In this document: positions 4,306-44,216 of the stretch, piece by piece
Layout of the letters: every line of letters begins with the position of its first letter
Position numbering within the stretch: position 1 is the stretch's first letter
DNA from: Eledone cirrhosa
Taxonomy: Eukaryota
DNA: 64,000 nucleotides
Assembly: GCA_964016885.1 (NCBI GenBank)
Contig: OZ024743.1
Span: 208,010,001 to 208,074,000 of the forward strand
Direction: 5' to 3'
Notes under the pieces: model-generated
What the model saw: the letters and a program-made list of their open reading frames with translations, nothing else
Database searches by the model: none
What the model was told of the DNA's origin: nothing
Made by a program: the position numbers and the translations under genes

Positions 4306-4373
4306 TATTTTATTATGCGCATTTCAAAAACAAACATCATCAAACAATATTTGTGTTTTCATCAGATAAAACA
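4306..4373 (-). ncRNA. Minimal type I hammerhead ribozyme (inverted copy, 3-nt deletion in stem II)
   Basis: Reverse complement of the 4464-4534 motif; core and stems I and III intact. Confidence 0.7.
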
Positions 4374-4463
4374 GGAGAACATGATATGAAGGCTAAAAAA
4401 AAATGTTGATTTAAAACTGCACTATCAACAAGTGTTTTTTTTAGCCTTCATATCATGTTCTCC

Positions 4464-4534
4464 TGTTTTATCTGATGAAAACACAAATATTATTGTTTGA
4501 TGATGTTTGTTTTTGAAATGCGCATAATAAAATA
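4464..4534 (+). ncRNA. Minimal type I hammerhead ribozyme
   Basis: tgttttat-CTGATGA-stem II (acaaatattatt/gatgatgtttgt)-GAAA-TGCGCA-TA-ataaaata; 8-bp stem I, palindromic stem III, AUA triplet. Confidence 0.8.
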
Positions 4535-4722
4535 TATTGAACTCCTTTAACCATCTTTTGATCTTATATTATGCATACTCCAGTCCCACAAACTGTAGAG
4601 TGCTTCTTATCCGATATCTGCATTGCTTTATTGTACTACAATAAAACTCACCTCCTACATATATGTATATATGTATATGTATATATATGTATATATGTAT
4701 ATGTATATATATATGTATGTAT

Positions 4723-5118
4723 CATCATCATCATCAACGTTTAACGTCCGTGTTCCACGCTTGCATGGGTTTGGACGGGGGTAGTCCCACTTGAGGCAAG
4801 AGTGATTGTCTTGCTCGCATAGGACTGTCTGGCAGGTTTTCTACAGTTGGATGCCCTTCCTAACACCAACCACATTTACAGTGTGGGTCTGGGAGGTTTT
4901 TACCGTGTTGCCTACACGGCCACATTACAGCGTGGACCGTGTGTTTTTTTGTCGTGACACCTACACGATCCCATTTGTTTCGGCCTGGATGGTGTGGCAC
5001 CAACACAACTTTACATAAAACGGGGTGGCGTGGATGGGGTGGGTATTTTGTTAGAGATGCCTACTGGTTGTAGTAGGTTTTACTATGTATTTAGGTAAGG
5101 CGGGTCTTCTCTGCTACT
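4723..5118 (-). mobile_element. 3' UTR and tail of an RTE (PHD-insert family)
   Basis: Matches 24308-24665 and the reverse complement of 32070-32470; (GAT)n tail. Confidence 0.85.
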
Positions 5119-8100
5119 GATATATATGTATGTATATGTATATATATATGTATGTATATGTATATATATATGTATGTATATGTATATATGTATGTATATG
5201 TATATATATATGTATATATATATGTATATATATATGTATATATATATATATATATGTATATATATATATATATATGTATGTATATATATATATATGTATG
5301 TATATATATATATATATATGTATATATGTATATATATATATATGTATATATATATGTATATATGTATATATATATGTATATATGTATATATATATATATG
5401 TATATATGTATATATATGTATATATATATATGTATATATGTATATATATGTATATATATATATGTATATATGTATATATATGTATATATGTATATATATA
5501 TATATGTATATATATATATATGTATATATATATATATGTATATATATATATATGTATATATATATATATGTATATATATATATATGTATATATATATATA
5601 TGTATATATATATATATGTATATATATATATATGTATATATATATATATGTATATATATGTATATATATATGTATATATATATATATATGTATATATATG
5701 TATATATATGTATATATATGTATATATATGTATATATATATATATATGTATATATATATATATATATGTATATATATATATATATATGTATATATATATA
5801 TATATATGTATATATATATATATATGTATATATATATATATGTATATGTATGTATATATATGTATATATGTATATGTATGTATATATATATATATGTATA
5901 TATATATATATATATGTATATATATATATATGTATATGTATGTATATATATGTATATATGTATATGTATGTATATATATATATATGTATATATATATATA
6001 TGTATATATATGTATATATGTATATGTATGTATATATATATAATGTATATGTATGTATATATATGTATATATGTATATGTATGTATATATATATATATGT
6101 ATATATATATATATATATATATATATATGTATATATGTATATGTATGTATATATATATATATGTATATATATATATATATATATATATGTATATATGTAT
6201 ATGTATGTATATATATATATATGTATATATATATATATATATGTATATATATATATATGTATATATATATATATATATATGTATATATATATATATATAT
6301 ATATATATATGTATATATATATATATATATATATATATATATGTATATATATGTATATATATATGTATATATATATGTATATATATGTATATATATATAT
6401 ATATATGTATATATATATATATATATGTATATATATATATATATATGTATATATATATATATATATGTATATATATATATATATGTATATATATGTATAT
6501 ATATATGTATATATATATGTATATATATATGTATATATATATGTATATATATATATATATATATATATGTATATATATATGTATATATATATATATATAT
6601 ATGTATATATATATATATATATATATATATATATATATGTATATATGTATATATATATATGTATATATATATATGTATATATATATATGTATGTATATAT
6701 ATATATGTATATATATATATATATGTATATATGTATATATATATATATATGTATATATATATATATATGTATATATATATATGTATATATATATATATAT
6801 GTATATATATATATGTATATATATATATATATGTATATATATATATATATATATATATATATATATATATATATATATGTATATATATATATATATGTAT
6901 ATATATATATATATGTATATATGTATATATATATGTATGTATATATATATATATATATGTATGTATATATATATATATATATGTATGTATATATATATAT
7001 ATATGTATGTATATATATATATATATGTATGTATATATATATATATATATGTATGTATATATATATATATGTATATATATATATATATGTATATATATAT
7101 ATATGTATGTATATATATATATATATATGTATGTATATATATATATATATATGTATGTATATATATATATATATATATATGTATATATATATATATGTAT
7201 ATATATATATATATGTATATATATATGTATATATATATGTATATATATATATATATATATATATGTATATATATATGTATATATATGTATATATATGTAT
7301 ATATATATGTATATATATATATATGTATATATATATGTATATATATATGTATATATATGTATATATATGTATATATATATGTATATATATGTATATATAT
7401 ATGTATATATATGTATATATATATGTATATATATATATGTATATATATATATATATGTATATATATATATGTATATATATATATATATATGTATATATAT
7501 ATATGTATATATATATGTATATATATATGTATATATATATATATATATATATATATATGTATATATATATGTATATATATGTATATATATATATATATAT
7601 GTATATATATGTATATATATGTATATATATATGTATATATATGTATATATATATATATATATGTATATATATATATATATATGTATATATATATATATAT
7701 ATGTATATATATATATATATATGTATATATATATATATATGTATATATATATATATATATGTATATATATATATATATGTATATATATATATATATGTAT
7801 ATATATATATATATATATATATATATATATATATATATATATGTATATATATATGTATATATATATGTATATATATATGTATATATATATATATGTATAT
7901 ATATATGTATATATATATATATATGTATATATATATGTATATATATATATATATGTATATATATATGTATATGTATATATATATGTATATATATATGTAT
8001 ATATATATATATATGTATATATATATGTATATATATATATATATGTATATATATATGTATATATATATATATATGTATATATATATATATATATATATAT

Positions 8101-42633: not shown

Positions 42634-43573
42634 TGTATATATATATGTATATATATGTATGTATATGTATGTATATATATATATGTATGTATATATATGT
42701 ATGTATATATATGTATGTATATATATGTATGTATATATATATATGTATGTATATATATATATGTATGTATATGTATGTATATGTATGTATATATATGTAT
42801 GTATGTATATATATGTATGTATGTATATATATATATGTATGTATGTATATATATATATGTATGTATGTATGTATATATATGTATGTATATATATATATGT
42901 ATGTATATATATATGTATGTATATATATATATGTATGTATATATATGTATGTATATATATGTATGTATATATATATATATGTATGTATATATATATATAT
43001 ATATGTATGTACATATGTATATATATATATATATATGTATGTACATATGTATATATATATATGTATGTATATATATATTTATGTATATATATATTTATGT
43101 ATATATATGTATGTATATATATATGTATGTATGTATATATATGTATGTGTGTATATATATATGTATCTATATATGTATGTATGTATATATATGTATGTGT
43201 GTATATATATATGTATCTATATATGTATGTATATATATATATATATATATATATTTATGTATATATATGTATATATATATATATATATTTATGTATATAT
43301 ATGTATATATATATATATATATTTATGTATATATATGTATGTGTGTATATATATGTATGTATATATATATGTATGTATATATATATATATATGTATGTAC
43401 ATATGTATATATATATATATGTATGTACATATGTATATATATATATATGTATGTACATATGTATATATATATATATATATATATGTATGTATATATATAT
43501 ATATATGTATGTATATATATATATATATGTATGTACATATACATTTGTATGTATGTATGTATATATATATATA
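42634..43573. repeat. (TA)n/(TATG)n microsatellite
   Basis: Direct reading. Confidence 0.98.
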
Positions 43574-43705
43574 TAAGTTAAAAATGTACATCCACATATG
43601 TATACTGAAATACTAGTATGCATATGAATACATACACGTATACATATGTAGATGTACCGAGTTTTTCACTGGTCACTTTTCTCTAGAAAGGCCGGAAGAT
43701 AGGTA

Positions 43706-43750
43706 AATATTGCTGATGAGATGTAACAACATCGAAACTAGTTCAATATT
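43706..43750 (+). ncRNA. Minimal type I hammerhead ribozyme
   Basis: aatattg-CTGATGA-gatgt aaca acatc-GAAA-CTAG-TT-caatatt; all stems perfect. Confidence 0.9.
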
Positions 43751-44171
43751 CCTTGTCTGGCTTTCTGGAGAATAGAGGAAAGGTGTTTCCTCAAAAACCA
43801 GTATGATTCTAAAAACCGGTTTGTCTGTGTGTTTACATACAGAATAGCTGGACACTCACAGTAAAGTGACCAGTGAAAAACTCGGTACATCTACATATGT
43901 ATACGTGTATGTATTCATATGCATACTAGTATTTCAGTATACATATGTGGATGTACATTTTTAACTTAATTGTTTAAGCGTCAGTCATACAAAAGTGAGT
44001 TACAAACGAAACGAAATTTAATTTCGTTTCGTTATTTGTTTTTATCGTCTCCGTTGAACCGGTACGTACTCACGCTCTATGCAAATTAGTCTGCCCACTA
44101 CTAATTTTCATAGAAAAAGCATATAACGATATGTGCTTTTACGATTCTCTAGAAAGGCCGGAAGATAGGTA

Positions 44172-44216
44172 AATATTGCTGATGAGATGTAACAACATCG
44201 AAAATAGTTCAATATT
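44172..44216 (+). ncRNA. Second tandem hammerhead, stem III CTAG changed to ATAG
   Basis: Otherwise identical to 43706-43750, 466 nt downstream. Confidence 0.7.

What the first reader, a model, noticed from the sequence alone, without database searches (positions are those of the whole stretch)
4306..44216. Five unrelated hammerhead sequence families in 40 kb, all with palindromic stem III
Seen: stem III inserts TGCGCA, TATATA, CTAG (two families) and CGATCG, each self-complementary, with stem I differing in sequence but always paired. All carriers abut (TA)n and most show 5' inversions. Inference: a diverse dimer-cleaving ribozyme retroelement system, where the palindrome could act as a family-specific dimerisation code (the two CTAG families might cross-activate).
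Basis: inference. Interest (0 to 1): 0.75.

Follow-up and report, generated by a model that had tools for sequence, protein, structure and literature searches.

The report
Dimer-type hammerheads of Penelope-like retroelements
The window holds six families of predicted self-cutting hammerhead RNA motifs at the ends of Penelope-like jumping genes and their protein-free passengers; the self-complementary third stem is real and likely lets two copies pair up to cut, an already published idea, but the palindrome is shared between families and so is not by itself a family code.

Summary
All five hammerheads are present with the stated palindromes, one with a 116-nt stem II. A sixth family (AGATTT, G·U palindrome) was missed. 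They are not unrelated. Families A, B and F are end repeats of Hydra-clade Penelope-like elements (PLEs), known to insert in (TA)n. C and D are homologous non-coding tandem retrozymes. E ends a young 1,217-aa PLE. In 800 kb of unbiased genome there were 45 motifs (0.27 per shuffle), 29 self-complementary. Genome-wide, the G·U-pairing centre ATATGTAT occurs 31,842 times and its mirror mutation ATACATAT 303 times, a selection signature for pairing between two molecules. Palindromic stem III and dimer cleavage in PLE hammerheads are published (2014, 2016). The code idea fails as worded. Palindromes recur across families, one autonomous lineage lacks one, and a swapped dimer also needs cross-paired stem I. 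The two CTAG families form only 2 such pairs, so cross-activation is not predicted. A and B share stem I and differ in stem III, so a combined stem I + III lock remains possible. Cleavage and expression are untested. The scan noted much the same before in this genome.

The parts
4276..4394 (-). Family A inverted 5' piece with hammerhead (core starts 4365, predicted cut after 4314)
4404..4658 (+). Family A 3' end of a Hydra-clade PLE; hammerhead core 4472, stem III ATGCGCAT, predicted cut after 4526; tail to 4658, then TA repeat
   Evidence: upstream ORF in sister copies
9032..10134 (+). Longer family A copy (3' UTR, with a 31-bp inverted piece at 9032-9062); hammerhead core 10034, predicted cut after 10088
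11508..11745 (+). Family B end piece; hammerhead core 11656 (U at position 3 in this copy), stem III ATATATAT, predicted cut after 11700
14618..15200 (+). Family D retrozyme unit with 5' inversion; octamer ATGCAAAT 14939-14946; core 15027, stem III ACTAGT, predicted cut after 15057
15457..17670 (-).
16041..16919 (-). C-terminal linker and GIY-YIG-like part of the family E ORF (about 288 aa of 1,217)
26153..26406 (.). Family B-type inverted remnant, cut inside stem II, without the CUGANGA box
32671..33064 (+). Family F end of a young Hydra-clade PLE; core 32722, 116-nt stem II, GAAA 32845, stem III ACGATCGT, predicted cut after 32856
43576..44510 (+). Family C retrozyme, about 1.8 units of 466 bp plus 5' inversion (43576-43682); cores 43713 (ACTAGT) and 44179 (AATAGT, broken); octamer 44079-44086

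Best explanation
These are type I hammerhead motifs with a very short stem III, carried at the ends of Penelope-like retroelements (Hydra clade for A, B and F; a Neptune/Nematis-type element for E) and in non-coding tandem retrozymes (C and D, likely moved by such elements), and they likely cut only when two copies pair through the palindrome. Shown: the folds, the ORF links, the tandem and inverted layout, the (TA)n association and the palindrome statistics. Inferred mechanism: a transcript of a tandem or partial tandem carries two like hammerheads. The palindrome cannot close as a hairpin, so the two swap strands and form an intermolecular stem III and intermolecular stems I, cut after H17 and release a unit-length RNA, which may be circularised in C and D. 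PLE RT/endonuclease then copies it into (TA)n, leaving 5'-truncated and inverted stubs. Partner choice comes from proximity in cis plus stems I and III together. Palindromes drift between lineages through G·U intermediates, so their variety is a by-product of compensatory change.
For: Hydra motifs (RVRWR, DKT, CxCX5C linker, CxxC, CxH) in the 830-aa family F ORF; CxCX5C, CxxC and CxH in the A-linked C-terminal ORF; CxCX5C in the B-type ORF, matched to section 11 of PMC8557442, which also reports (TA)n insertion. Family E: 1,217-aa ORF with YVDD, CX4CX2C and YIGET, in 4,146-bp tandems. C: 466-bp tandems of up to 17 units in one stretch; D: a 432-bp tandem pair; no PLE ORF of their own among the D loci. 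Monomer stem III hairpins cost +2.4 to +6.0 kcal/mol, while dimer duplexes give -3.2 to -10.5 for A-D and F. ATATATAT 48,725; ATATGTAT 31,842; ATACGTAT 963; ATACATAT 303. These central bases are loop in a monomer, so G·U tolerance, C·A exclusion and a C-G rescue (963 against about 198 expected from the 0.62% T-to-C rate) point to pairing between two copies. A compensatory stem II change at 43721/43732 appears in other samples. Dimer cleavage of PLE hammerheads is published.
Against: No cleavage or expression data here. Sixteen of 45 unbiased motifs are not self-complementary, 7 of them from one autonomous lineage. Family E's dimer duplex is only +0.2 kcal/mol and its stem I 2 bp. The 105:1 asymmetry counts copies, not independent founding events, though ATATGTAT appears with at least five different stem II sequences among the first 100 matches (judged by eye). 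Pfam gave no hit for the E, F-related (B-type) or window ORFs tested; RT and endonuclease identity rests on motifs and on weak BLAST links to Pfam-positive PLE ORFs. The link of the window's own B subfamily to an ORF is through relatives at 80% or more, not direct. No autonomous partner was found for C or D. Published in vitro rates are low even for dimers.
Confidence: 0.85

Rival explanations
1. Stems I and III together act as a selected self/non-self lock that stops co-expressed families from cutting or parasitising each other in trans.
For: All five named window families are predicted mutually incompatible: A and B cross-pair stem I over 8-10 bp but have 2 stem III mismatches (+5.7 kcal/mol); C and D share stem III but cross-pair only 2 bp of stem I. 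Only 9 of 435 cluster pairs are compatible in both, and most of those look like relatives.
Against: Neutral compensatory drift gives the same pattern. Pairing in cis within tandem transcripts needs no lock. A with the ATATGTAT form of B has one mismatch only (-0.1 kcal/mol). I ran no test that separates selected from incidental orthogonality.
Confidence: 0.12
2. The stem III palindrome alone is a family-specific dimerisation code, and families sharing it (the two CTAG families) cross-activate.
For: Four different palindromes among the five named families; strong palindrome enrichment.
Against: Palindromes are reused by several clusters and vary within a lineage. Thirty of 39 stem-III-compatible pairs lack a cross stem I. 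C x D gives 2 bp.
Confidence: 0.04
3. The motifs cut as monomers with protein help, or serve as structural signals, and the palindrome reflects loop preference or TA-rich origin.
For: Non-palindromic lineages spread well. ATATATAT resembles the target repeat. The authors of PMC4209133 leave non-cleaving roles open.
Against: GC-rich palindromes (ACGATCGT, ATGCGCAT, ACGCGT) and the covariation TA, TG, CG without CA at the centre are not explained by a loop preference.
Confidence: 0.08

Closest known systems
Short/palindromic-helix-III hammerheads in PLE pseudo-LTRs (Cervera and De la Pena 2014, PMC4209133, parts 1-2 of 4 read; Lunse, Weinberg and Breaker 2016, not held, seen only as cited in review PMC6765202)
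   Same: Type I fold, small palindromic helix III, unpaired base before stem II, many sequence families per genome, opposite-strand pairs 100-700 bp apart, dimer model.
   Different: Palindromes here are 6-8 nt with stems I of 6-10 bp. F has a 116-nt stem II. Copy number is about 1.4-2.4 x 10^5 above control, as high as or higher than the 126,247 motifs reported for axolotl (PMC7229834, passages).
Hydra clade of C-terminal EN+ PLEs (Craig et al. 2021, PMC8557442; section 11 and passages read, supplements not read)
   Same: RW[KR], DKT, CxCX5C linker, CxxC and CxH motifs, single ORF, canonical hammerhead, (TA)n insertion, tandem and inverted copies.
   Different: The paper speaks of a small number of families outside cnidarians; here Hydra-type hammerheads run to tens of thousands. 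F is longer than the usual under 3 kb (its hammerhead lies 3.5 kb after the stop codon in L168).
Animal non-LTR retrozymes (PMC7229834, passages; bioRxiv 10.64898/2026.07.22.740005, part 1 and passages)
   Same: Non-coding tandem units with one type I hammerhead each, low GC, highly self-paired predicted circle, proposed PLE-driven mobility.
   Different: The 466-bp unit is slightly above the quoted 150-450 bp. C and D keep an octamer box 88-100 nt upstream of the core, which recalls the snRNA-type promoter of newt satellite 2 (cited in PMC2220036, passage). Circular RNA is not shown here.

Membership tests
Type I hammerhead ribozyme | CUGANGA and GAAA boxes, A15.1-U16.1 pair, H17 | tested here: met
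   met in all families; the window's B copy has U at position 3
Type I hammerhead ribozyme | Stems I and II flanking the core | tested here: met
   Stem I 6-10 bp in A-D and F, only 2 bp in E; stem II folds in all; compensatory change in C
Type I hammerhead ribozyme | Self-cleavage after H17 | not testable with these tools
   No assay possible
Dimer-type PLE hammerhead | Short palindromic helix III unstable as a monomer | tested here: met
   weak for E
Dimer-type PLE hammerhead | Cleavage depends on dimer formation | not testable with these tools
   Only the indirect mutation asymmetry
Hydra-clade PLE (A, B, F) | RWK-type motif and DKT | tested here: met
   RVRWR at 52 and DKT at 132 in the F ORF; the A- and B-linked ORF pieces lack the N-terminus, so not tested there
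Hydra-clade PLE (A, B, F) | CxCX5C linker; CxxC and CxH near the C-terminus | tested here: met
   Linker in F, B-type and A ORFs; CxxC and CxH in F and A
Hydra-clade PLE (A, B, F) | Insertion into (TA)n | tested here: met
Hydra-clade PLE (A, B, F) | RT phylogeny with reference Hydra elements | not tested
   No reference sequences fetched
Neptune or Nematis PLE (E) | CX2-5CxxC linker between RT and GIY-YIG | tested here: met
   CTNRKCIIC at 1085, YIGET at 1124
Neptune or Nematis PLE (E) | Clade placement by RT tree | not tested
   Neptune and Nematis not told apart
Non-LTR retrozyme (C, D) | Short non-coding tandem units, one type I hammerhead per unit | tested here: met
   466-bp and 432-bp periods
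Non-LTR retrozyme (C, D) | Expressed as linear and circular RNA | not testable with these tools

The most novel reading that the evidence does not exclude
A genome with about 2 x 10^5 hammerheads from dozens of co-existing PLE and retrozyme families has evolved mutually orthogonal dimer locks made of stem I plus the stem III palindrome, with palindromes switching through G·U intermediates, so that each family cuts only its own RNA and passengers must match their helper's lock.
Probability: 0.12. Interest if true: 0.65.

Novelty: new member of a known kind. Interest (0 to 1): 0.3.

Why it matters
The kind is known, so the system itself is not a discovery. Two things have value. First, the genome-wide counts of centre variants (G·U form 31,842, mirror C·A form 303, C-G rescue 963) give evolutionary evidence that stem III pairs between two copies in the living lineage, where the dimer model has rested on slow in vitro cleavage. 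I found no such test, but could not read Lunse et al. Second, pairs A/B (same stem I, different stem III) and C/D (same stem III, different stem I) are a ready natural two-by-two set for testing what sets partner choice in double hammerheads.

Tried and rejected
The Rfam scan listed only microsatellite-driven miRNA matches below gathering score among the 150 of 531 rows shown; it was no use for hammerheads. My first descriptors missed D (mismatch at the base of stem II), F (long stem II) and E (short stem I), so strict counts are lower bounds. Pfam: 0 families for the window ORF and for 3 of 5 other ORFs. No RNA holder listed. Laid contigs are of unrecorded kind, and the end-to-start joint is expected from DNA tandems as well, so it is not evidence of circles. 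A search for shared ends between C/D and autonomous PLE loci gave one 87-nt, 71% match in TA/TG-rich sequence, which I rejected as low complexity. A versus B alignment around the ribozyme was not above shuffles (21 against 19.9 +/- 2.8), so their kinship rests on clade and stem I only. A frequent family with GAAACAGTTCT did not pass the descriptor and was left unresolved. The family-level palindrome tally uses loci partly chosen by my own queries (for example the CGATCG pattern); only the 45-hit set is unbiased, and it covers the four largest contigs. Lunse et al. 2016 and Cremisi et al. 1992 could not be read; supplements of Craig et al. 2021 (hammerhead lists) were not read and may already hold related motifs.

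Full report
Setting. The window lies on a 379-Mb contig of a 3.0-Gb animal genome. It is full of TA-rich repeats (33% of 4306-44216) and of non-LTR retroelement ORFs. The repeat landscape reminds me of octopod genomes; that is recall and was not tested.

Observation. A descriptor for type I hammerheads found families A (4365-, 4472+, 10034+; ATGCGCAT), B (11656+; ATATATAT), D (15027+; ACTAGT) and C (43713+, ACTAGT; 44179+, broken AATAGT). The CGATCG family F was found by reading: core at 32722, a 116-nt stem II rod, GAAA at 32845, stem I 10 bp. A sixth family, E (17370+, 15757-), has AGATTT, self-complementary through G·U pairs, and a 2-bp stem I. Shuffles of the window gave 0.51 sites and 0.02 palindromic sites on average, against 10 and 9 observed, 3 of them internal duplicates. 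TA abutment and 5' inversions are as described, except that B has no inversion and F's 5' side is in a gap.

What carries them. Family F is young (41 matches listed at 99-100% identity, 536 candidates) and sits on both sides of an 830-aa ORF with RVRWR, DKT, YRDD, a CxCX5C linker, YIGAT, CxxC and CxH. These are the features given for the Hydra clade, which inserts into (TA)n (PMC8557442 section 11). Two of 12 family A loci hold the C-terminal part of a related ORF upstream on the same strand, and a third holds it on the inverted copy. B-type hammerheads flank related ORFs in L011-L013 (47% identity to F); the window's own B subfamily is linked through relatives at 90-94%. Family E ends a 1,217-aa ORF with YVDD, a CX4CX2C linker and YIGET, present in many open copies at 99% identity and in 4,146-bp tandems, which makes it Neptune- or Nematis-like. 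Families C and D are non-coding tandems of 466 and about 432 bp. They are homologous (upstream local score 54 against 17.2 +/- 2.4, maximum 29 in 1,000 shuffles) and keep ATGCAAAT 100 or 88 nt before the core in 67 of 72 and 19 of 28 copies. The C unit folds as a circle at -156.5 kcal/mol against -93.9 +/- 6.5 for 40 shuffles. So 'five unrelated families' are three Hydra-clade ends and two related retrozymes.

Genome scale. The core followed by an 8-nt stem III and A matches 150,130 times against 11,714 for the reversed control; the 6-nt version matches 276,154 times against 35,955; the two sets overlap. In 80 evenly spaced 10-kb stretches of the four largest contigs, 45 motifs passed a descriptor blind to palindromes (0.27 per shuffle, 15 shuffles): 23 exact, 6 G·U, 16 neither. 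Seven of the 16 belong to one lineage with AGAACT or AGGACT that follows GIY-YIG-type ORFs and has relatives of family E's stem II. Four have 9-nt ACC...GGT inserts that can close as monomers. Five are single copies. Over all 253 motifs in hand, 30 clusters: 17 exact, 3 G·U, 3 odd-length, 7 other; null mean 2.1 for exact plus G·U (this set is biased by my queries).

Evidence for pairing between copies. The two central bases of an 8-nt stem III are loop in a monomer and paired in a dimer. From ATATATAT (48,725), an A-to-G change gives ATATGTAT (two G·U pairs; 31,842), and the mirror T-to-C change, the same mutation on the other strand, gives ATACATAT (two C·A mismatches; 303). The double change ATACGTAT restores Watson-Crick pairs and occurs 963 times, about five times the 198 expected from the 0.62% background rate; one subfamily recurs among its first 100 matches. 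Predicted duplex energies are -3.2, -2.2, -6.5 and +2.6 kcal/mol. Copies are not independent events, but the pattern fits selection on an RNA duplex between two copies.

Testing the code. In a swapped double hammerhead, A15.1 of one copy pairs with U16.1 of the other, so H17 and the 3' strand of stem I also come from the partner; a heterodimer needs cross-pairing of both stems (inference from topology). Among 435 cluster pairs, 39 have compatible stem III; 9 of those also have 4 bp or more of cross stem I on at least one side, and 30 do not; 11 further pairs share stem I but not stem III. C x D: 2 bp each way. A x B: 8-10 bp of stem I but 2 stem III mismatches. ACGATCGT appears with many different short stems II (127 matches) and in 5 clusters. 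The palindrome is thus neither unique to a family nor universal. A combined lock is possible, but drift explains it equally well.

Known work. Cervera and De la Pena 2014 (PMC4209133, parts 1-2 of 4 read) describe palindromic helix III, dimer action, many families per genome and low in vitro activity. The review PMC6765202 (passages) states the same and cites Lunse et al. 2016, which was not held. Retrozymes: PMC7229834 (passages) and bioRxiv 10.64898/2026.07.22.740005 (part 1 and passages). Searches for hammerheads with octopus or cephalopod gave no dedicated study; the giant squid paper lists 235 Rfam hits (passage). Earlier notes of this scan on the same genome reached the same verdict on the code and on the Hydra clade; I had formed my reading before looking, and they are not independent support.

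Verdict. The dimer model gains an indirect genomic argument. The palindrome-only code is rejected. Interest 0.3.

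Noticed in passing
window 15457-17670; L148-L150: Family E is a very young PLE: 134 scored matches at 99% identity, many in open frames of about 1,217 aa, some in head-to-tail 4,146-bp arrays; its ORF has a long Asn-rich insert and no Pfam hit.
   Followed up: partly
window 32729-32844: 116-nt stem II rod in family F, kept in near-identical young copies; a few genomic copies have it deleted down to a few bases.
   Followed up: partly
window 14939-14946 and 44079-44086: Octamer ATGCAAAT in a block conserved between retrozymes C and D; a possible snRNA-type promoter as in newt satellite 2. Absent from the 311-bp retrozyme.
   Followed up: partly
L151 (G000:C1:1241766-1244284): A third retrozyme, nine 311-bp units, stem III ACGCGT.
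   Followed up: partly
G000 C1, many places: Abundant family with a core followed by GAAACAGTTCT that does not fit the descriptor; stem III and cut site unresolved.
   Followed up: no
window 43683-44145, run X5: A run labelled as another organism holds the family C unit as one 495-nt contig that closes on itself, at low depth; kind of run not on record.
   Followed up: no
window 8729-8890: Hairpin-shaped 3' stub of an E-related PLE, without hammerhead, between TA arrays.
   Followed up: partly
window 34584-38207 (+), 19750-23973 (-), 257-3703 (+), 51169-56882 (+): Non-LTR retroelement ORFs: an open 1,208-codon frame with endonuclease and RT motifs, and several interrupted ones.
   Followed up: no
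window 46434-49362: 54-bp minisatellite with a 328-bp higher-order period (99% matches).
   Followed up: no
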